Notes: generated by a model not told the origin, from the letters alone. DNA of 64,000 nt from Candidatus Nomurabacteria bacterium (GCA_020632075.1 JACKGH010000001.1:458852-522851); one strand, 5' to 3'; positions 24,388 through 57,813 are shown, counted from the stretch's first letter. Numbers and translations: made by a program.

Positions 24388-24853
24388 ACTTGGTTTCTTC
24401 AGCTTCTGCTTCTGGAGCAGGCGCTTCTTCTTTTGAGGCTTCAGCTTCTGCTGGAGCCGCTTCCTCTGAAACTTCAGTAGATTCTGCTGCTGCTTCAGGA
24501 GCAGCCTCAGCTTCGGCGGCTGCTTTTTCGGCCTCTGCCTTGGCTGCTGCTTCCTCCTCAGCTCGCTTGATCGCCTCTTCGTCGATAATTGGTGACTTCT
24601 TTGGCAACACGTTAATCTTCTTGCCCTCAATCACCTTTTCTGACACAAGCAGGTTGTGCATGGTCTCAGAAGGCTGCACACCCTTTGCAAGCCATTCCTT
24701 AGCCTTGTCCTTATCAAGCTGAATGTGATTCATCTTAGGATTGTACGAACCAAGACGATCGACATGCTTGTCGCTCTTTGGGCCAGTTCGCTTATCGGTA
24801 ACCACAATACGATATGAAGGATCGTTGCGGCGGCCGACTCGTTGTAAACGCAT
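24386..24853 (-). CDS. rpsP: 30S ribosomal protein S16 with A/E-rich C-terminal extension
   Basis: MRLQRVGRRNDPSYRIVV N-terminus typical of bS16 (the 6-frame ORF begins 3 codons earlier at 24862); ~60-aa Ala/Glu/Lys low-complexity tail. Confidence 0.85.
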   Translation of the reverse strand: MRLQRVGRRNDPSYRIVVTDKRTGPKSDKHVDRLGSYNPKMNHIQLDKDKAKEWLAKGVQPSETMHNLLVSEKVIEGKKINVLPKKSPIIDEEAIKRAEEEAAAKAEAEKAAAEAEAAPEAAAESTEVSEEAAPAEAEASKEEAPAPEAEAEETK

Positions 24854-36571: not shown

Positions 36572-36731
36572 GCATTCGCGGAAAAATACAATTGTGGAGA
36601 AATGTATATTTTTAATGATCTGGAACAGCAAATTACGACTGTTTGAGCCGTAGGCGAGTTTCGTAATTTGCGTTGTGTAAGAGAATATAAAAATAACAGT
36701 TCGGAGCATTCTTGTATTTTTCCGCGAATGC
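36572..36731. repeat. perfect 20-bp inverted repeat pair (GCATTCGCGGAAAAATACAA / TTGTATTTTTCCGCGAATGC) separated by 120 bp, just upstream of the dnaE promoter
   Basis: Arms 36572-36591 and 36712-36731 are exact reverse complements. Confidence 0.85.
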
Positions 36732-36739
36732 GAGCGAAA

Positions 36740-36748
36740 TGCTATAAT
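36740..36748 (+). promoter_or_regulatory. extended -10 (TGcTATAAT) 9 nt upstream of dnaE ATG; possible leaderless mRNA
   Basis: TGCTATAAT at 36740-36748, ATG at 36758, no SD between. Confidence 0.4.
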
Positions 36749-36757
36749 CACCCCACC

Positions 36758-39700
36758 ATGGCAGAATCCGACCAATCCTACCCACCAATCAAGGCTGACT
36801 TCGTCCACCTGCACGTACATTCAATGTACTCCCTCCTCAATGCCGTCCCGACCCCAAAGGAGCTTGTTAAAGCCGCCAAAGCAGACGGTCAGGATGCTCT
36901 TGCCATCACCGACGCTGGCGCACTCTACGGCGCGATCGACTTCTACAAAGCTTGCACCTACGAAGATGTGAAGCCGATCATCGGCCTCGACGCTTACCTT
37001 GCGCCACGGACTCGTTTTGATAAAGAAATGCAAGACCGGCCCCACTCGCGTCTTGTTCTCCTTTCGAAGACTTTTTCCGGCTACCAAAATCTTATCGAGA
37101 TGGTGACTCGTTCCAATGTCGACGGGTTTTACTACAAACCTCGCCTCGACGACGAGCTCCTTGAAAAACATCACGAGGGACTGATCTGTATCATCCCATC
37201 CTTTGCCGGGGAGATAGCTCAAGCACTCAAAGACAACAATCCCGACAAAGCCGCCGAACGCCTCGATTGGTACAAGAGCCTCTTTGGCGACGACTGCTAT
37301 CTTGAGATCTCCCATCACCCAGAGATCTTCGGCCACCAAGAAAATCAAGAACTCATCAAGAAGCTCGCGAGAGAGACAGACACTCCCCTCGTAGCTGCCC
37401 AAGACATCTACTATATGAAGCCTGGCGATCGGTTGGCGCGTGAGGTGATGGTGAAGATTGGGAGCGGTGGTGTCGTAGACACCACCGCTGATCACGATAC
37501 CGGCGAAGACTTTTCGTTCAAGACGCAAGCAGAGATGAAAGAATGGTTTGCTGATACTCCTGAGGCGATTTCAAATACCGTCAAGATCGCAAATGAATGC
37601 AACGTAAAAATCACCCTTGGCCAGGATGCCTGGATGTTCCCGAAGTACATCATCGAGAGTGGTCGTACACCCGACAACGAACTCCACCATCGCGCCTGGG
37701 AAGGAGTGACCTGGCGCGGTATGGATCCAGAAGACGAGGAACTAAAAGACCGCCTCACCTTCGAGCTCGACGTGATCAAGATGAAGGGCTACGCAACTTA
37801 CTTCCTCGCTGTGGGCGACCTCCTGCGTGAAGCGCGTGAGCGCGGCATCTACACCACCATTCGTGGTTCGGTGGCTGGATCACTCGCCACCTACGTGCTC
37901 GGGATCACCAACGTGGACCCGCTTGAGTACCGCCTCCCCTTCGAGCGTTTCCTCAACCCGGAACGACCATCGGCACCTGATATCGACATGGACTTTGCTG
38001 ATAATCGTCGCGATGAGATCATTTCCTATGCCCGCGAGAAATACGGCTACGACAACGTGGCGCAGATCGGTACCTTTGGAACTATGATGGCGAAAGCGGC
38101 CGTGCGCGACGTGGCGCGAGCCCTTGGTCATAGCTACTCCACCGGTGATCGTATCTCCAAAATGATACCAATGGGGAGCCAAGGATTTGCCATGACCATT
38201 GATCGCGCGATAGACATCGAACCTGAACTCGCCGAGTTGTACAAGAAAGATGCAGAAAGTCGCGAAGTGATCGACCTCGCGAAGCAGATCGAAGGGCGCG
38301 TACGACACCTCGGAGTACACGCGGCTGGTGTAGTGATCGCACCTGAACCCCTCAATAACTACGTTCCGATCCAGATCGACTCCAAGACCGGCAAGCAGAT
38401 CACCCAGTACGAAATGAAGTCTGTGGGTGAAGATGGTGTTGGTCTCCTCAAGTTCGACTTCCTCGGTATCAAAAACCTCGCCATTTTGGCTGACGCTGTA
38501 AAGCGTGTGAAAAAGATCCACAACGTTGACATTGATATTGAAAACATTCCACTTGATGACCCAAAGACCTTCGAGATCCTCGCCTCTGGTCAGACTATGG
38601 GACTTTTCCAGCTCAATGGTTCCGGTATGACTGCGTTCCTTAAGCAGCTGAAGCCGACTACTATTCATGACATCAACGCGATGGTGGCGCTCTATCGTCC
38701 TGGCCCGATGGAAATGATCCCGACGTACATCGAGCGAAAATACAATCCTTCCCTCGTAACCTATCTCGACCCACGCCTCGAGCCAATTCTTGAGCGATCG
38801 TACGGGGTGATCACCTACCAGGATGACGTGATGATGATCTCCATCCAGCTCGCAGGCTACTCTTGGCTCGAGGCTGACATGCTGCGTAAGGCGATGGGTA
38901 AGAAGATCCCTGAACTCATGGAAGAGCAAAAGAAAAAGCTGTTTGCTGGCTTCCTCGAACACGGCCTCTCGCAGGATAAGGCAGATAAGCTCTGGCAGCT
39001 CATTGAACCATTTGCGGCATATGGATTCAACAAAGCGCACGCTGCGTCGTACGGTCGCGTCGCCTACCAAACCGCCTACATGAAAGCCAACTTCCCCGTG
39101 GAGTACATGTCGGCCGTGCTCACCGCTGACTCGGGCGACACCGAAAAGATCTCTGAGATCATTCACGAATGTGAACGTATGGGCGTACCAGTACTTCCAC
39201 CAGACATCAATGAATCCTTTTCCGACTTCTCCGTGGTGCCGGGGAAAAATACCATCCGCTTTGGACTCACCACCATCAAAAACTTCGGTGAAGGCATCGC
39301 TGATGTGATCATCGAAGAACGAAAGAAGAACGGTCCGTTTGCATCCATGCAAGACTTCCTCACCCGCATCCATGACCGAGGACTCAACAAGAAATCCCTC
39401 GAAGCGCTTATCATGACCGGTGCCTTTGATAAGTTCGGTGAACGTGGCGAACTTATTGCCAACCTAGACAATCTCCTCGCCTACAACCGCGAGCAAGTTA
39501 GTGGCAAGGAAACTGGTCAGGACTCGCTCTTCGGCGGCATGGACGAAGTCTCTGGCCTCACTCTCGAACCGGCCGAAGACGCACCAATGGCCCAGAAACT
39601 CCTTTGGGAAAAGGAACTGCTTGGCGTGTACGTGTCCGGCCACCCACTCGACGCAGTGAAGGACGAGGTCGACAAACGACCAAGTATTGAGCAAGTAAAG

Positions 39701-39997
39701 AAGGGCCACCAGGGCACGACCGTTGTGACCACCGGCCTCATCGAGATCGTCAAAGAACTCCTCACCAAAAAGGGTGACAAAATGGCCTTCATCAAGATCG
39801 CCAACCAAACCGACAGTATCGAAACCGTCGCCTTCCCCGAAACCTACAAAGACAATCGTGAGCTCTTCGTGCCAGGCACCTGCGTGGCCATCAAAGGTAA
39901 GTTCAATGTCCGCAATGACGAGCCATCGATTTTGATCGATAAAGTGAAGCGACTTGGGAGTGATGAGATGGTGGGAGAGCCGATTTCTAGTAATTGA
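36758..39997 (+). CDS. dnaE: DNA polymerase III alpha subunit
   Basis: Start at MAESDQSY (the 6-frame ORF begins 30 codons earlier at 36668); PHP domain FVHLHVHSMYSLL; polymerase core through C-terminal OB domain; ~1080 aa. Confidence 0.95.
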   Translation: MAESDQSYPPIKADFVHLHVHSMYSLLNAVPTPKELVKAAKADGQDALAITDAGALYGAIDFYKACTYEDVKPIIGLDAYLAPRTRFDKEMQDRPHSRLVLLSKTFSGYQNLIEMVTRSNVDGFYYKPRLDDELLEKHHEGLICIIPSFAGEIAQALKDNNPDKAAERLDWYKSLFGDDCYLEISHHPEIFGHQENQELIKKLARETDTPLVAAQDIYYMKPGDRLAREVMVKIGSGGVVDTTADHDTGEDFSFKTQAEMKEWFADTPEAISNTVKIANECNVKITLGQDAWMFPKYIIESGRTPDNELHHRAWEGVTWRGMDPEDEELKDRLTFELDVIKMKGYATYFLAVGDLLREARERGIYTTIRGSVAGSLATYVLGITNVDPLEYRLPFERFLNPERPSAPDIDMDFADNRRDEIISYAREKYGYDNVAQIGTFGTMMAKAAVRDVARALGHSYSTGDRISKMIPMGSQGFAMTIDRAIDIEPELAELYKKDAESREVIDLAKQIEGRVRHLGVHAAGVVIAPEPLNNYVPIQIDSKTGKQITQYEMKSVGEDGVGLLKFDFLGIKNLAILADAVKRVKKIHNVDIDIENIPLDDPKTFEILASGQTMGLFQLNGSGMTAFLKQLKPTTIHDINAMVALYRPGPMEMIPTYIERKYNPSLVTYLDPRLEPILERSYGVITYQDDVMMISIQLAGYSWLEADMLRKAMGKKIPELMEEQKKKLFAGFLEHGLSQDKADKLWQLIEPFAAYGFNKAHAASYGRVAYQTAYMKANFPVEYMSAVLTADSGDTEKISEIIHECERMGVPVLPPDINESFSDFSVVPGKNTIRFGLTTIKNFGEGIADVIIEERKKNGPFASMQDFLTRIHDRGLNKKSLEALIMTGAFDKFGERGELIANLDNLLAYNREQVSGKETGQDSLFGGMDEVSGLTLEPAEDAPMAQKLLWEKELLGVYVSGHPLDAVKDEVDKRPSIEQVKKGHQGTTVVTTGLIEIVKELLTKKGDKMAFIKIANQTDSIETVAFPETYKDNRELFVPGTCVAIKGKFNVRNDEPSILIDKVKRLGSDEMVGEPISSN

Positions 39998-40404
39998 CAA
40001 ATGACAAACAATATGTATAGTATTTTAGTCCTAGGTCTTACTGGAGAACATCATGGAAGTTAATCCTGAAGAGTATCTCAATCGCGAATTCTTGTCTTTT
40101 GCAAAGAAATTTGGGTTTTCACCCTCGACATCTCAACCTCAACAGTTTAACGAACTTAGAACGACAGCCGTGGTGCACCTTCTCTATAGCATGGTTGACA
40201 CAAACCGTTTCGCCTCGCTTGACGAGACAAAACGACTACGGATTGGGGGATTGTCGCTGCAGCGTCGAAGAATGCCTGTCACAACAATAGTAACTACGAA
40301 CAAAATTTTAACTTGTCTCTATCGCTGGCAACCTGGATCAACACCTACCCGGCTGAGTAGAGAGGGATTCGTTGCACACCGCGTCCTCGGCCGCGGTTTT
40401 TTGT

Positions 40405-40430
40405 TTGACAATATTTTTTAGCGCTAGGAT
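40405..40430 (+). promoter_or_regulatory. promoter-like motif copy B (TTGACA-14-TAGGAT)
   Basis: tttgacaatattttttagcgctaggattgtagaaacagagattg is near-identical to copy A, including downstream ACAGAGATTG. Confidence 0.4.
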
Positions 40431-40456
40431 TGTAGAAACAGAGATTGTAACTTGAA

Positions 40457-40696
40457 CTAGTTAGGCGAACTTTGCTTCTTGAGCAAAATGTATGAAACCA
40501 AACCAGAAATAAACACGATGCAGAAGAGAAATAGAGCAAGATAAGCTTCGCTCACACCGATCATCCAGTACATACCAAACACCATCATCCAAACCAAATT
40601 CAATACGAAAGCAATACCGACCGTCAAGAGTATGAATTTTAGCAAGTAAATCACCTTAGAATCTGATGCGATAATTTCTTTTTGCAATATATTCAT
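40457..40696 (-). CDS. hypothetical small two-TM membrane protein (doubtful)
   Basis: 79-aa ORF with two hydrophobic segments; no SD; lies antisense to a region downstream of a promoter-like motif. Confidence 0.25.
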   Translation of the reverse strand: MNILQKEIIASDSKVIYLLKFILLTVGIAFVLNLVWMMVFGMYWMIGVSEAYLALFLFCIVFISGLVSYILLKKQSSPN

Positions 40697-40759
40697 AGCA
40701 TTACATTCTTAAATTTTATTATTCACATAATAGCATAGGCGACTTCTTTTCTGGAAAAA

Positions 40760-40787
40760 TTGACAATATTTCTAGTCGCGTTAGGAT
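40760..40787 (+). promoter_or_regulatory. promoter-like motif copy A (TTGACA-16-TAGGAT) upstream of the T-box leader
   Basis: TTGACA 40760-40765, TAGGAT 40782-40787; conserved block AATATTTCTAG...GCG.TTAGGATTGTA shared with copy B. Confidence 0.5.
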
Positions 40788-40792
40788 TGTAC

Positions 40793-40980
40793 GTACAGAG
40801 ATTGCAGCGGCTACCAACCGCTGGGGCGCGAACGAAGTGAGCGCCCATGAGGAATCACTTCCCTTCTAACCTGTACCAATGAAGCGCCGAGCGGCATACC
40901 AGCTCGGAAACTCGGTGGAACCGCGATCAAGATCGTCCGAGTAGGCACACGAATTTCGTGTATCTACTCGGACGTTTTTT
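40793..40980 (+). promoter_or_regulatory. T-box riboswitch leader (Thr-specific; ultrashort stem I with ACC in a 7-nt loop) ending in a terminator/antiterminator
   Basis: T-box sequence CUCGG-UGGAACC-GCGAUCAAGAUCG-CCGAG (40911-40941): 7-nt UGGAACC bulge flanked by helices, with the 3' strand shared with terminator stem GTCCGAGTAG/CTACTCGGAC + T6 (40935-40980); specifier hairpin CAGCGG-CUACCAA-CCGCUG at 40805-40823; UGGA bulge matches discriminator U of the tRNA-Thr in this window. Confidence 0.75.
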
Positions 40981-41353
40981 AAATGAGAAAAGGAGCCTAC
41001 GGCGACTATTTCGAATTTATGCAGGCGCTTCAGCAGATTCGACCTACCAAGGGAGAATATGCTAATAGCGAGCTGCACCAATTTATTAACCAGATTGTTC
41101 CTTTCAGACCTTTTCCAGACACGCATCCTCGCCTCCAGCGGGCTCGGCGCTATGCTCGCTGAGTTTCGCACTTTCGTGCGACCGAGCAAATCGAGCTGCG
41201 CAATGTCTGTCAAAAGTCTGAAAGGAACAATCACCACATCCGAGAGCCAGAGAATTATTGCTGTCTAGCGAAACATCTGCAGCGACAATACCCGGAGCGA
41301 AGCCGTTTCGTCTGATAGTAATAATTCTCTGGCTCTAAGAAAAATTCACAATT

Positions 41354-43105
41354 ATGGACCAATCACTCGAACACAAACGACACACCCTTGCTCACCTGCT
41401 CGCGGCAGCGGTGTTGCAGCGATACCCGCACGCCAAGCTCACCCTCGGCCCAGCGATCGACAACGGCTTTTACTACGATATCGACTTCTCAGCTGGCGAA
41501 ACACCGGGCGATAGCGATCTCAAGGGTCTCCAGAAAGACATGAAGAAGCTCCTCAATAAGTGGACTGACTTTACCCACGAGGAAGTCTCGGCGGAGCAGG
41601 CACGCGAAGCTTTTGCCGGCAACAAGTTCAAACTCGAGCTCATCGACGAGATCGAAGGCAAGAGTGAGACAATTACGCTCTACACATGTGGCGGCTTTAC
41701 CGATCTCTGTCGTGGTGGCCACTGTGAACACCCAAACAAAGACATCAACGCTGACGCGTTCAAGCTCGATAAGATCGCTGGTGCCTACTGGCGTGGTGAT
41801 GAGAAGAACCCGATGCTCACTCGCATCTACGGTCTCGCATTTGAGACCAAAGAAGAGCTCGAAGCCTATGAGAAGCAGCAGGAGGAAGCCAAAGCGCGTG
41901 ACCACCGCAAGCTCGGCAAAGAACTCGACCTCTTCACCTTCTCTGAACTGATTGGTCCAGGCCTCCCTCTTTTCACCCCTAAAGGCACCCTTATGCGTGA
42001 CCTCATCGTAGAAAAGATCATGAAGATTCAGGCGAAGTTCGGCTACACCAAAGTAACCATTCCGCACATCACCAAAAGCGATCTCTACAAGACCTCCGGT
42101 CACTGGGACAAGTTTAAGGATGAGCTCTTCCATGTTAAAGGTCAGTCTGACGCTGAGTTTGTGATGAAACCAATGAACTGTCCGCACCACACACAGATAT
42201 TCGACAGCCGGCCACGTTCATACAAAGAGCTACCGATCCGTTACGCCGAGACCACGATGGTCTATCGCGACGAGCAGGCCGGCGAGCTGATTGGTCTTAG
42301 TCGAGTGCGCAGTATTACGCAAGACGATGGACACGTGTTCTGTACCGTTGATCAGATCGAGCAGGAAGTCGAAAATATTCTTAACGTGATCAAGGAGTTC
42401 TACACTGCGCTTGGTATGTACGAAGAAGGTAAGTTCTGGGTTTCGCTCTCAGTCAGTGATCCAAATGATCCCGACGGCCGGCTAGGAGATGACGCTGTGT
42501 GGGACAAAGCAGAAAGCACCCTCGAAGAAGTAGCGAAGCGACTCAACCTCCCGTACAAGCGAGTTGAGGGTGAAGCAGCCTTTTATGGACCAAAGATCGA
42601 CTTCATGTTCTATGATGCGATCGGGCGCGAGAGGCAGCTTGGCACCGCCCAGCTCGACTTCGTGATGCCAAGTCGCTTTGGCCTCACCTACACTGACAAC
42701 GAAGGCAACAAGCAGATTCCAGTAATGATCCATCGTGCCATTGCAGGATCACTCGAGCGCTTTATGGCTGTGATGATCGAGCACTTCGCCGGCAACTTCC
42801 CACTCTGGCTCTCGCCGGTACAGCTCGCCGTGATTCCGGTCGCTGATGCGCACAATGAATATGCACGAGAGGTGGCGGAAATTTTGCGCCAGCAAAATTT
42901 CCGCGTCGAGCTCGACGACTCAAAAGAAGGTATGGGCAAGAAGATCCGCGCTGCCAAACAAGCCAAACTCCCCTACTTCATCGTCATTGGTGACAAAGAA
43001 GTTGAAGGGAAAACCATCACCCTTGAAAGTCGTGACGCCGAGGGTTCAGAATCGCTCAACATTGAGGCATTGCTGGCGAAATTATCTACCGAGGCAAGCG
43101 TATAA
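41354..43105 (+). CDS. thrS: threonyl-tRNA synthetase (lacks N-terminal TGS domain)
   Basis: 583-aa ORF beginning in the editing domain (RHTLAHLLAAAV); class II motifs and C-terminal anticodon-binding domain. Confidence 0.95.
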   Translation: MDQSLEHKRHTLAHLLAAAVLQRYPHAKLTLGPAIDNGFYYDIDFSAGETPGDSDLKGLQKDMKKLLNKWTDFTHEEVSAEQAREAFAGNKFKLELIDEIEGKSETITLYTCGGFTDLCRGGHCEHPNKDINADAFKLDKIAGAYWRGDEKNPMLTRIYGLAFETKEELEAYEKQQEEAKARDHRKLGKELDLFTFSELIGPGLPLFTPKGTLMRDLIVEKIMKIQAKFGYTKVTIPHITKSDLYKTSGHWDKFKDELFHVKGQSDAEFVMKPMNCPHHTQIFDSRPRSYKELPIRYAETTMVYRDEQAGELIGLSRVRSITQDDGHVFCTVDQIEQEVENILNVIKEFYTALGMYEEGKFWVSLSVSDPNDPDGRLGDDAVWDKAESTLEEVAKRLNLPYKRVEGEAAFYGPKIDFMFYDAIGRERQLGTAQLDFVMPSRFGLTYTDNEGNKQIPVMIHRAIAGSLERFMAVMIEHFAGNFPLWLSPVQLAVIPVADAHNEYAREVAEILRQQNFRVELDDSKEGMGKKIRAAKQAKLPYFIVIGDKEVEGKTITLESRDAEGSESLNIEALLAKLSTEASV

Positions 43106-54564: not shown

Positions 54565-54591
54565 AGATGGAAACTAATTAGAAATATGTCG

Positions 54592-54600
54592 CAATCCTAA
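54592..54600 (-). promoter_or_regulatory. TTAGGATTG motif (copy C) 28 nt upstream of pheS start
   Basis: Minus strand reads gcgcggcTTAGGATTGcgacatatttctaattagtttccatctATG; the AATATTTTCTAC block occurs further upstream. Confidence 0.4.
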
Positions 54601-54770
54601 GCCGCGCAAAATTTGAGTAGAAAATATTGCAGACGACTGAGTCATACTTGAGTATGACGAAGAAGGATAAAATATTTTATGCCAAATTTTGCGCGGCGTC
54701 GATGCGAAATGATTTGTAAAAGATAACTTCATATCAGATTTCTTATTAGTTTCCCAAGTGTAGCACGCGT

Positions 54771-57740: not shown

Positions 57741-57813
57741 GCCACCTTAGCTCAGTTGGTAGAGCAACGGTTTTGTAAACCGTGGGTCGTCAGTTCGAGT
57801 CTGACAGGTGGCT
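57741..57813 (+). tRNA. tRNA-Thr (anticodon UGU); CCA not encoded
   Basis: Cloverleaf read directly: acceptor GCCACCT/AGGTGGC, D-arm GCTCAGTTGGTAGAGC, anticodon arm ACGGT-TTTGTAA-ACCGT, T-arm GTCAG-TTCGAGT-CTGAC, discriminator U. Confidence 0.9.

What the first reader, a model, noticed from the sequence alone, without database searches (positions are those of the whole stretch)
40405..40800. Duplicated promoter-like block (TTGACA...AATATTTYTAG...GCG.TTAGGATTGTA..ACAGAGATTG) 355 bp apart, with a third partial copy in front of pheS
Two ~45-nt near-identical blocks lie at 40405-40450 and 40760-40805. The second leads directly into the T-box leader. The first is followed on the + strand only by a region antisense to a doubtful 79-aa membrane ORF. 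A third copy of the core GCGGCTTAGGATTG plus an ATATTT(T)CTA block lies 28 nt upstream of pheS (minus strand, 54592-54600). This could be a shared regulatory module for aminoacyl-tRNA synthetase genes, tandem promoters P1/P2 for thrS, or a driver of an antisense or leader RNA.
Basis: seen in the sequence. Interest (0 to 1): 0.5.

Follow-up and report, generated by a model that had tools for sequence, protein, structure and literature searches.

The report
thrS promoter duplicated by a small insertion
The repeated block is the promoter plus the first ten bases of the tRNA-sensing (T-box) leader of the threonyl-tRNA synthetase gene; an orphan 310-bp gene insertion left a second, probably crippled copy, which is an ordinary rearrangement scar and not a shared control module.

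Summary
The two blocks are real: 40405-40450 and 40760-40805, about 83% identical with one 2-nt indel, and no similarity beyond them.

- **Copy 2** is the thrS core promoter (TTGACA, 16 nt, TAGGAT) plus the first ~10 nt of a thrS T-box leader. Twenty-four related Paceibacteria (CPR) loci have this block once, with constant geometry. Covariation shows that ACAGA in the block pairs with UCUGU downstream as the basal helix of the riboswitch.
- **Copy 1** keeps the ancestral left junction, a terminator T-tract abutting the -35, as in the closest relative L091, which has a single block. Its spacer is 14 nt against 16-18 in all orthologues, and it lacks the rest of the T-box.
- **Between the copies** lies a 309-bp low-GC segment. 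It carries an orphan 79-aa membrane ORF on the minus strand with its own extended -10.

My best reading is an insertion or duplication scar in a variable dnaE-thrS hotspot. Copy 1 is dead or weak. If it is active, it would make an RNA antisense to orf79 that reads into the thrS leader.

The pheS "third copy" is a 9-mer at background similarity level. It is absent from about 50 pheS relatives and sits in a lineage-specific insert. The shared aaRS module is not supported.

The parts
40378..40404 (+). Intrinsic terminator of the upstream unit (hairpin 40378-40397 plus T-tract), directly abutting the -35 of copy 1. This is the ancestral left junction.
   Evidence: Terminator scan. The same terminator-TTTTTGTTTGACAATATTTT junction, 20 nt identical, is in the closest relative L091, and similar ones are in L005 and L006.
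40405..40450 (+). Copy 1: an orphaned duplicate of the thrS promoter plus leader start. -35 TTGACA 40405-40410, 14-nt spacer, -10 TAGGAT 40425-40430, ACAGAGATTG 40438-40447. Probably inactive or weak.
   Evidence: The 14-nt spacer compares with 16-18 nt in 24 orthologues. The promoter scan did not report it. Nothing T-box-like follows it.
40451..40759 (.). Inserted low-GC segment (34.6% GC) that separates the two copies.
   Evidence: GC 0.346 against 0.47-0.54 in the flanks. No DNA similarity to any relative locus. No terminal inverted repeats.
40457..40696 (-). orf79: an orphan small hydrophobic protein (79 aa), the cargo of the insert.
   Evidence: Translation. Called as a gene on 10 contigs. 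Only itself found in 5.8 billion proteins; NCBI lists it as hypothetical protein KC877_01650 of a Candidatus Kaiserbacteria bacterium. The chance of an open frame of this length at this composition is about 0.003 per frame.
40727..40735 (-). Extended -10 (TGCTATTAT), the likely promoter of orf79. It lies inside the insert, 30 nt upstream of the ATG.
   Evidence: Read from the sequence. The TGnTAnnnT type is the common promoter form in this window and upstream of pheS in relatives. The site itself is inferred, not tested.
40760..40805 (+). Copy 2: the working thrS promoter plus leader start. -35 TTGACA 40760-40765, 16-nt spacer, -10 TAGGAT 40782-40787, inferred start about 40793-40795, ACAGAGATTG 40795-40804.
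   Evidence: Promoter scan, 10 of 12 matches. Same geometry in 24 orthologues.
40795..40985 (+). thrS T-box leader. P1 5' strand 40795-40799, pairing with 40870-40874. Invariant GAUUG 40800-40804. Specifier hairpin 40805-40823 with loop CUACCAA (ACC at 40813-40815). T-box sequence 40908-40925 (UGGA bulge). Terminator arms 40929-40953 and 40955-40979, plus T-tract.
   Evidence: Rfam partial match. Conservation. Covariation: 98% of cells paired, 10 of 11 pairs with double changes, 0 of 500 shuffles as good. Fold z-score -5.8. tRNA-Thr with U73 matches UGGA.
41354..43105 (+). thrS (threonyl-tRNA synthetase, 583 aa), the regulated gene.
   Evidence: Pfam tRNA-synt_2b, HGTP_anticodon and tRNA_SAD. 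Orthologues at 75-88% identity.

Best explanation
The block is the sigma-70-type core promoter of thrS together with the first ~10 nt of its T-box leader RNA. Copy 2 (40760-40805) is the functional one. It has -35 TTGACA, a 16-nt spacer and -10 TAGGAT, and transcription starts about 6-8 nt later. The RNA therefore begins (GU)ACAGAGAUUG. ACAGA is the 5' strand of the basal helix of the T-box, and GAUUG is an invariant junction that leads into a hairpin displaying the Thr codon ACC. When tRNA-Thr is uncharged, its end pairs with the UGGA bulge of the T-box and prevents formation of the terminator at 40929-40985, so thrS is transcribed. Copy 1 (40405-40450) is a scar. In an ancestor with one block placed directly after the upstream terminator, as in relative L091, a ~310-bp low-GC segment became inserted at about +10/+11 of the leader. 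That segment carries an orphan membrane-protein gene (orf79, minus strand) with its own promoter. The insertion either duplicated the 46-bp promoter segment or brought a donor copy of it. The downstream copy kept driving the essential gene. The upstream copy then lost 2 bp of spacer and is now inactive or weak. Shown here: the identity of copy 2, the single-copy state in relatives, the ancestral left junction and the pairing of ACAGA. Inferred: the insertion mechanism, the transcription start and the inactivity of copy 1.
For: (1) All 24 orthologous thrS leaders have one block with -35 TTGACN, a 16-18 nt spacer, TANNNT, and 16-20 nt from there to the end of ..GAUUG. Only the window has a second copy: score 28 against 11-16 background in the 24 other loci. 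(2) Covariation on 24 sequences: the block's ACAGA pairs with UCUGU about 70 nt downstream, 5 of 5 pairs show changes on both sides and 99% of cells are paired. The specifier hairpin has 6 bp and the ACC of its loop is invariant. (3) The closest relative L091 (ThrRS 88% identical) has terminator-TTTTTGTTTGACAATATTTT...TAGGATTGTACATACAGAGATTG followed by the T-box, once. Its left side matches copy 1 and its right side matches copy 2. (4) Copy 1 has a 14-nt spacer and the promoter scan does not report it. The RNA downstream of it has no unusual structure, z = -1.1, and there is no similarity to the leader beyond the block. (5) The segment between the copies is 34.6% GC against ~50% in the flanks and encodes an ORF with no homologue. 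(6) The dnaE-thrS spacer is a variable hotspot with different small genes in L091, L092 and L093. In L091, cassettes are likewise bounded by three diverged copies (76-82% identical) of the dnaE 3' end. (7) T-box identity: Rfam aligns stem III and the antiterminator. The UGGA bulge matches the U73 discriminator of the tRNA-Thr encoded in the window.
Against: There is no transcription data. The start site and the inactivity of copy 1 are inferred from sequence only. An alternative -35, TTGTTT at 40401-40406, gives an 18-nt spacer to TAGGAT, so weak activity is possible. The copies differ by about 17% while ten strain-level contigs are almost identical. So either the event is old or the two copies have different origins, and the mechanism is not established. 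No recombinase, terminal inverted repeats or short target-site duplication were found. No empty-site allele was found within the same species; the best comparator shares only 88% ThrRS identity. Scenario B, an old orf79 with a later copy of the promoter placed on its far side, is disfavoured only by the shared 20-nt left junction.
Confidence: 0.7

Rival explanations
1. Tandem promoters. Both copies fire. P1 (copy 1) makes a long transcript that runs antisense through orf79, continues through P2 and the T-box, and so couples orf79 silencing with thrS expression. This would resemble convergent-overlap (type I toxin-antitoxin-like) control of a small membrane protein.
For: Copy 1 keeps intact TTGACA and TAGGAT hexamers and the same 17-nt distance from the -10 to ..ATTG. 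An alternative TTGTTT-18 nt-TAGGAT arrangement exists. Copy 1 faces the 3' end of orf79, whose stop codon is only about 7-10 nt away. orf79 is small and hydrophobic.
Against: The 14-nt spacer lies outside the 16-18 nt range of all 24 orthologues, and there is no TG extension to compensate. The promoter scan does not report it. There is no terminator or structured RNA after it. The arrangement is unique to this lineage. orf79 has no homologues, so no conserved toxin family is involved.
Confidence: 0.18
2. Shared regulatory module. The block, or its core GCG..TTAGGATTG, is an operator or promoter class common to aminoacyl-tRNA synthetase genes (thrS, pheS) and is bound by a common regulator.
For: TTAGGATTG occurs exactly 3 times in the window, two of them upstream of thrS and pheS. 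Both have a GC-rich stretch before TAGGAT.
Against: The 9-mer with one mismatch is at chance frequency, 13 against 11.3 expected. The gapped alignment to the pheS upstream region scores 16.0 against 15.8 and 15.6 for unrelated coding-sequence hits. The third exact hit lies inside a gene. About 50 pheS relatives lack the motif and use a TGnTA(C/G/A)ACT -10 close to the ATG. In the window that conserved pheS promoter is still present at 54757-54765 (-), and the 9-mer lies in a lineage-specific insert, inside a 52-aa ORF. In thrS relatives the -10 varies (TACGAT, TAAGAT, TATAAT, TATACT), as expected of a plain -10.
Confidence: 0.03
3. Mobile-element footprint. The 309-bp segment is a transposable or site-specific integrating cassette, and the two blocks are its target-site duplication or attL/attR sites.
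For: Direct repeats flank a low-GC, single-gene insert. In L091, neighbouring cassettes are also flanked by duplicated local sequence.
Against: The repeat is 46 bp and only 83% identical, whereas typical target-site duplications are 2-14 bp and identical (established knowledge). There are no terminal inverted repeats. There is no transposase or integrase in the insert or nearby. No other copy of the insert exists in the window or in 170 loci.
Confidence: 0.07

Closest known systems
Sigma-70-type bacterial promoter (-35 TTGACA / -10 TATAAT, 17 +/- 1 nt spacer)
   Same: Copy 2 has a perfect -35, a 16-nt spacer and TAGGAT (4 of 6). This geometry is conserved in 24 orthologous loci.
   Different: Copy 1 has the same hexamers but a 14-nt spacer. 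No start site has been mapped for either copy.
T-box riboswitch (Rfam RF00230), transcriptional type, as in Bacillus subtilis thrS and tyrS
   Same: It sits upstream of an aaRS gene. The specifier codon ACC matches the amino acid. The T-box sequence has a UGGN bulge complementary to the tRNA end, here UGGA with U73. Stem III, the antiterminator and a competing terminator with a U-tract are present.
   Different: It has no canonical long Stem I with K-turn, internal specifier loop and distal platform. Instead there is a 5-bp basal helix, invariant GAUUG/CCUAA junction strands, and the specifier in a 7-nt terminal hairpin loop. It scores only 31 bits against the gathering score of 93.
Actinobacterial ileS T-boxes with shortened Stem I
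   Same: The specifier is presented in the Stem I hairpin loop. TBDB assigns it that way for these T-boxes (doi 10.1101/2020.06.17.157016).
   Different: Those are translational (a sequestrator of the ribosome-binding site) and Ile-specific. This one has an intrinsic terminator, is Thr-specific, and occurs in Paceibacteria (CPR). No paper in the searched library links T-boxes with CPR.
Duplications flanking integrated DNA (Campbell-type or homology-assisted integration of donor fragments at a hotspot)
   Same: Diverged direct repeats of local sequence bound an inserted accessory gene. The relative L091 shows the same pattern with three copies of the dnaE 3' end around a ParE/Phd cassette and a 173-aa-ORF cassette.
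   Different: The mechanism is inferred only. No recombinase, circular intermediate or donor was identified.

Membership tests
Sigma-70-type promoter (copy 2) | -35 and -10 hexamers close to consensus with a 16-18 nt spacer | tested here: met
   TTGACA, 16 nt, TAGGAT: 10 of 12 matches. Conserved in 24 orthologues.
Sigma-70-type promoter (copy 2) | Transcription start 5-9 nt downstream of the -10 | not testable with these tools
   The start is inferred at about 40793-40795, because the conserved RNA helix begins at 40795.
Sigma-70-type promoter (copy 1) | 16-18 nt spacer between the hexamers | tested here: not met
   The spacer is 14 nt. The scan does not report it. Only a poor alternative, TTGTTT-18 nt-TAGGAT, exists.
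T-box riboswitch (RF00230) | Score at or above the Rfam gathering threshold | tested here: not met
   31.2 bits against 93. Only the 3' half aligns well.
T-box riboswitch (RF00230) | Specifier codon matching the regulated aaRS | tested here: met
   ACC (Thr) is invariant in 24 of 24 leaders, in the loop of a covarying hairpin, and is followed by a purine in 24 of 24.
T-box riboswitch (RF00230) | T-box sequence with a UGGN bulge complementary to the tRNA 3' end (NCCA) | tested here: met
   AAACUCGGUGGAACCGCG at 40908-40925. UGGA pairs with U73-CCA of the tRNA-Thr at 57741-57813.
T-box riboswitch (RF00230) | Mutually exclusive antiterminator and intrinsic terminator | tested here: met
   The antiterminator is aligned by Rfam. 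The terminator has 25-nt arms plus a T-tract and overlaps the antiterminator's 3' strand. The switching itself was not tested.
T-box riboswitch (RF00230) | Canonical Stem I (K-turn, internal specifier loop, distal platform contacting the tRNA elbow) | tested here: not met
   Rfam leaves the Stem I region as an insertion. The covariation-supported structure is a 5-bp helix plus a hairpin-loop specifier.
Tandem promoters P1/P2 | Two independent transcription starts in the same direction for one gene | not testable with these tools
   No RNA data are available. The sequence argues against P1.
Shared aaRS regulatory motif | Motif enriched upstream of aaRS genes and conserved in orthologous positions | tested here: not met
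   Background-level similarity. Absent from about 50 pheS relatives.
Transposon or insertion sequence with target-site duplication | Terminal inverted repeats, a transposase, and a short identical target-site duplication | tested here: not met
   No terminal inverted repeats. No transposase. The repeats are 46 bp and 83% identical.
Type I toxin-antitoxin (small hydrophobic toxin plus antisense RNA) | Small membrane peptide with an overlapping, convergently transcribed antisense RNA | tested here: inconclusive
   orf79 is hydrophobic, but at 79 aa it is long for such toxins and has no homologues. The antisense promoter would be the defective copy 1. There are no RNA data.

The most novel reading that the evidence does not exclude
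Copy 1 may be retained for a function. It could act as a weak promoter whose RNA is antisense to the orphan membrane-protein gene and reads into the thrS T-box, which would couple an accessory cassette to an essential-gene leader. Alternatively, read on the other strand, it puts a 10-nt anti-leader sequence (CAAUCUCUGU) into the orf79 3' UTR that could pair with the first bases of the T-box. More broadly, the dnaE-thrS hotspot, where cassettes are bounded by diverged duplicates of local sequence here and in L091, could reflect an undescribed cassette-integration route in CPR bacteria.
Probability: 0.12. Interest if true: 0.55.

Novelty: new member of a known kind. Interest (0 to 1): 0.3.

Why it matters
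As posed, the finding resolves to something ordinary: one working promoter and one leftover copy. The leftover marks where a small foreign gene landed inside the leader of an essential gene, and how the cell kept thrS expressed.

The finding has three practical uses:
- It fixes the 5' end of a T-box leader in a CPR genome.
- It shows that the promoter block and the riboswitch overlap by ten bases.
- It warns against reading promoter-like repeats as shared regulons.

The surrounding context is more interesting than the repeat. Paceibacteria carry a thrS T-box with a non-canonical decoding domain that Rfam's model misses. The thrS 5' UTR also holds conserved hairpin elements that occur in either orientation in different species.

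Tried and rejected
1. **Larger tandem duplication (promoter plus T-box, later decayed).** Rejected. Alignment of 40405-40759 against 40760-41114 shows nothing beyond the first ~46 nt. The local score is 49.0 against a shuffle mean of 49.3.
2. **Homologues of orf79 or of the insert.** None were found. tblastn and blastn against 170 loci gave nothing, and the search of 5.8 billion proteins found only the protein itself. The origin of the cassette is therefore unknown.
3. **Homologues of 'orf122' (40053-40421).** None were found. It was not called as a gene on the metagenome contigs, and its frame runs through the terminator.
4. **Terminal inverted repeats or transposon ends at the insert borders.** None were found.
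5. **A parallel duplication of the pheS promoter around the pheS-proximal insert.** The alignment is not significant: score 8 against a shuffle mean of 7.3, p about 0.33.
6. **The exact 13-mer TTAGGATTGTACG at 24735.** It lies inside a coding region, so it is a chance match.
7. **Rfam at gathering threshold.** It finds no T-box. The T-box appears only in the permissive local search.
8. **Literature on T-boxes in CPR or Patescibacteria.** No paper was found in the held library.
9. **A same-species empty-site allele.** It was not found. All 10 contigs carrying orf79 are the same strain, and the next ThrRS relative is 88% identical.

Full report
**Context.** The window comes from a CPR bacterium of the Paceibacteria/Kaiserbacteria group. 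orf79 and ThrRS match NCBI proteins of a 'Candidatus Kaiserbacteria bacterium' MAG with a 1.0-Mb contig. The closest species representatives are Paceibacterota and Parcubacteria MAGs. The local gene order is as follows:
- dnaE, 36668-39997 (+)
- a promoter at 39994-40023 and an unconserved 122-codon frame, 40053-40421
- a terminator at 40378-40397
- copy 1
- orf79, 40457-40696 (-)
- copy 2
- a structured leader of about 550 nt
- thrS, 41354-43105 (+)

**Observation.** The two blocks are real. There are 12 identical nt at TTGACAATATTT and a 27-nt stretch at 85% identity. By my count from the alignment, 38 of 46 aligned columns are identical overall, with one 2-nt indel. The 23-nt core occurs twice in the window against 0.01 expected. 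Ten independent metagenome assemblies that are 99.8-100% identical to the window span both copies, so the duplication is not an assembly artefact. Nothing beyond the ~46 nt is similar.

**What copy 2 is.** I fetched thrS loci from 80 species representatives and from four closer metagenomic relatives. Twenty-four of them carry a T-box core upstream of thrS. All have a single block with constant geometry:
- -35 TTGACN
- a 16-18 nt spacer
- -10 TANNNT, with TAGGAT, TACGAT or TAAGAT in the nearer relatives
- 16-20 nt from there to the end of an almost invariant (N)CAGAGAUUG

The block therefore spans the core promoter and the first ~10 transcribed bases. On a motif-anchored alignment of the 24 leaders, the ACAGA of the block pairs with UCUGU about 70 nt downstream. 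All 5 pairs show changes on both sides, and 99% of cells are paired. The next element is a 6-bp hairpin whose loop, CUACCAA, carries an invariant ACC. For the whole structure, 98% of cells are paired, the covariation score is 0.70 against 0.24 in shuffles, 0 of 500 shuffles do as well, and slid registers collapse to 26-44% paired. Downstream, Rfam aligns stem III, the T-box sequence and the antiterminator (31 bits, E=7e-5, below the gathering score of 93). A 25-bp terminator with a T-tract follows (fold z = -5.8). The T-box bulge reads UGGA. The tRNA-Thr encoded in the window has the discriminator U73, as the T-box mechanism requires. Copy 2 is therefore the thrS promoter, and its 3' end is the 5' strand of the riboswitch's basal helix.

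**What copy 1 is.**
- Among 25 loci, only the window has a second copy.
- The closest relative, L091 (ThrRS 88% identical), has the upstream terminator's T-tract running straight into the -35 of a single block. Twenty nt, TTTTTGTTTGACAATATTTT, are identical to the copy 1 junction. That single block then continues into the specifier hairpin as copy 2 does. L005 and L006 show the same terminator/-35 abutment.
- Copy 1 therefore holds the ancestral left junction and copy 2 the ancestral right junction.
- The 309 nt between them is 34.6% GC against about 50% around it.
- That segment matches nothing in any relative.
- It encodes a hydrophobic 79-aa ORF with no homologue in 5.8 billion proteins. 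The ORF is preceded by an extended -10 (TGCTATTAT, 40727-40735, minus strand) of the type common in this genome.
- Copy 1's spacer is 14 nt, outside the 16-18 nt range of all orthologues.
- It has no TG extension.
- It is followed by unstructured sequence with no T-box partner strand.

I conclude that a small foreign segment was inserted at about +10/+11 of the thrS leader, with duplication or co-import of the 46-bp promoter segment. The downstream copy was kept by selection on an essential gene, and the upstream copy is decaying.

**Mechanism.** The mechanism is inferred, not shown. There are no terminal inverted repeats and no transposase or integrase. The 17% divergence between the copies suggests either an old event or two copies of different origin. 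The dnaE-thrS spacer is a variable hotspot:
- L091 carries a ParE/Phd pair, a 173-aa ORF and a 149-aa ORF.
- L092 carries two 129-aa ORFs.
- L093 carries a 105-aa minus-strand ORF.

In L091 the first two cassettes (the ParE/Phd pair and the 173-aa ORF) are bounded by three diverged copies (76-82% identical) of the dnaE 3' end. That is the same style of scar as here.

**The pheS 'third copy'.**
- The 9-mer is present at 54592-54600 on the minus strand.
- With one mismatch it occurs at chance frequency.
- A gap-tolerant local alignment of copy 2 against the whole window ranks the pheS upstream region only marginally above unrelated coding hits, 16.0 against 15.8 and 15.6.
- About 50 pheS relatives from metagenomes lack the motif. 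They have the upstream gene's stop 25-35 nt before the pheS ATG, with a TGnTA(C/G/A)ACT -10 in between.
- The window keeps that conserved promoter, TGCTACACT at 54757-54765 (minus strand). It has an extra ~170 nt, including a 52-codon ORF (54574-54732), between that promoter and pheS. The 9-mer lies inside this ORF.
- The thrS -10 itself varies among relatives, as a plain -10 does.

A shared aaRS module is not supported.

**Rivals.** Weak activity of copy 1 cannot be excluded without RNA data, for example through TTGTTT-18 nt-TAGGAT. It would give an RNA antisense to orf79 that reads into the thrS leader. I give this reading about 0.18. The mobile-element footprint gets about 0.07 and the shared module about 0.03.

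**Comparison with known systems.** Copy 2 is a standard sigma-70-type promoter. The leader works like a transcriptional T-box, but it fails the Rfam threshold and lacks a canonical Stem I. Its hairpin-loop specifier resembles the shortened Stem I of the actinobacterial ileS T-boxes described in TBDB. Those are translational and Ile-specific. I found no paper on CPR T-boxes in the held library.

**Verdict.** The duplication is a rearrangement scar and not a regulatory design. The repeat itself is of low to moderate interest. The atypical T-box and the orientation-variable hairpin elements in the same leader are the more noteworthy by-products.

Noticed in passing
window 40795-40985; L001-L008, L013, L015, L016, L019, L030-32, L049, L051, L064, L068, L069, L080, L091-93: The thrS T-box of these Paceibacteria has a non-canonical decoding domain: a 5-bp basal helix, invariant GAUUG and CCUAA junction strands, the Thr codon in a 7-nt terminal loop (CUACCAA), and a variable hairpin. 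It scores 31 bits against the Rfam gathering score of 93, so standard annotation misses it. No CPR T-box literature was found.
   Followed up: partly
window 41093-41232 (inverted-repeat arms 41093-41121 and 41204-41232): A ~140-nt element flanked by inverted repeats lies between the T-box terminator and thrS. It is 89% identical to L004 in the same orientation and 89.6% identical to L091 in the inverted orientation, at the same locus. It could be an invertible or palindromic element in an essential-gene 5' UTR.
   Followed up: partly
window 41243-41336: A second long hairpin (32-nt arms) lies just upstream of the thrS start. Its core, CUGUCUAGCGAAACAUCUGCAG, recurs in L092 in the same orientation and in L002 and L006 in the reverse orientation. 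No Rfam family matches it.
   Followed up: partly
window 40246-40262 versus 41277-41293: A 17-nt stretch inside the unconserved 'orf122' transcript unit is complementary, with one mismatch, to the loop region of the hairpin before thrS. My rough estimate of the chance expectation is ~0.003. The meaning is unknown.
   Followed up: no
window 39994-40421: A strong promoter (TTGACA-16 nt-TATAGT, 11 of 12 matches) drives a 122-codon frame with no homologues. Gene callers did not call it, and its stop codon lies after the intrinsic terminator. It may be a small RNA or a shorter or mis-framed gene.
   Followed up: partly
L091 1436-3013: Three diverged copies (76-82% identical) of the dnaE 3' end bound a ParE/Phd toxin-antitoxin cassette and a 173-aa ORF in the closest relative. 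The dnaE-thrS spacer is an accessory-gene hotspot across the relatives.
   Followed up: partly
window 54565-54770 (-): The pheS gene of this genome has a lineage-specific ~170-nt insert between the conserved promoter (TGCTACACT, 54757-54765) and the ATG. The insert includes a 52-codon ORF (54574-54732). Relatives have only ~25-35 nt there.
   Followed up: partly
window 57741-57813: The tRNA-Thr(UGU) gene has no encoded CCA and has discriminator U73. This matches the UGGA bulge of the thrS T-box.
   Followed up: yes
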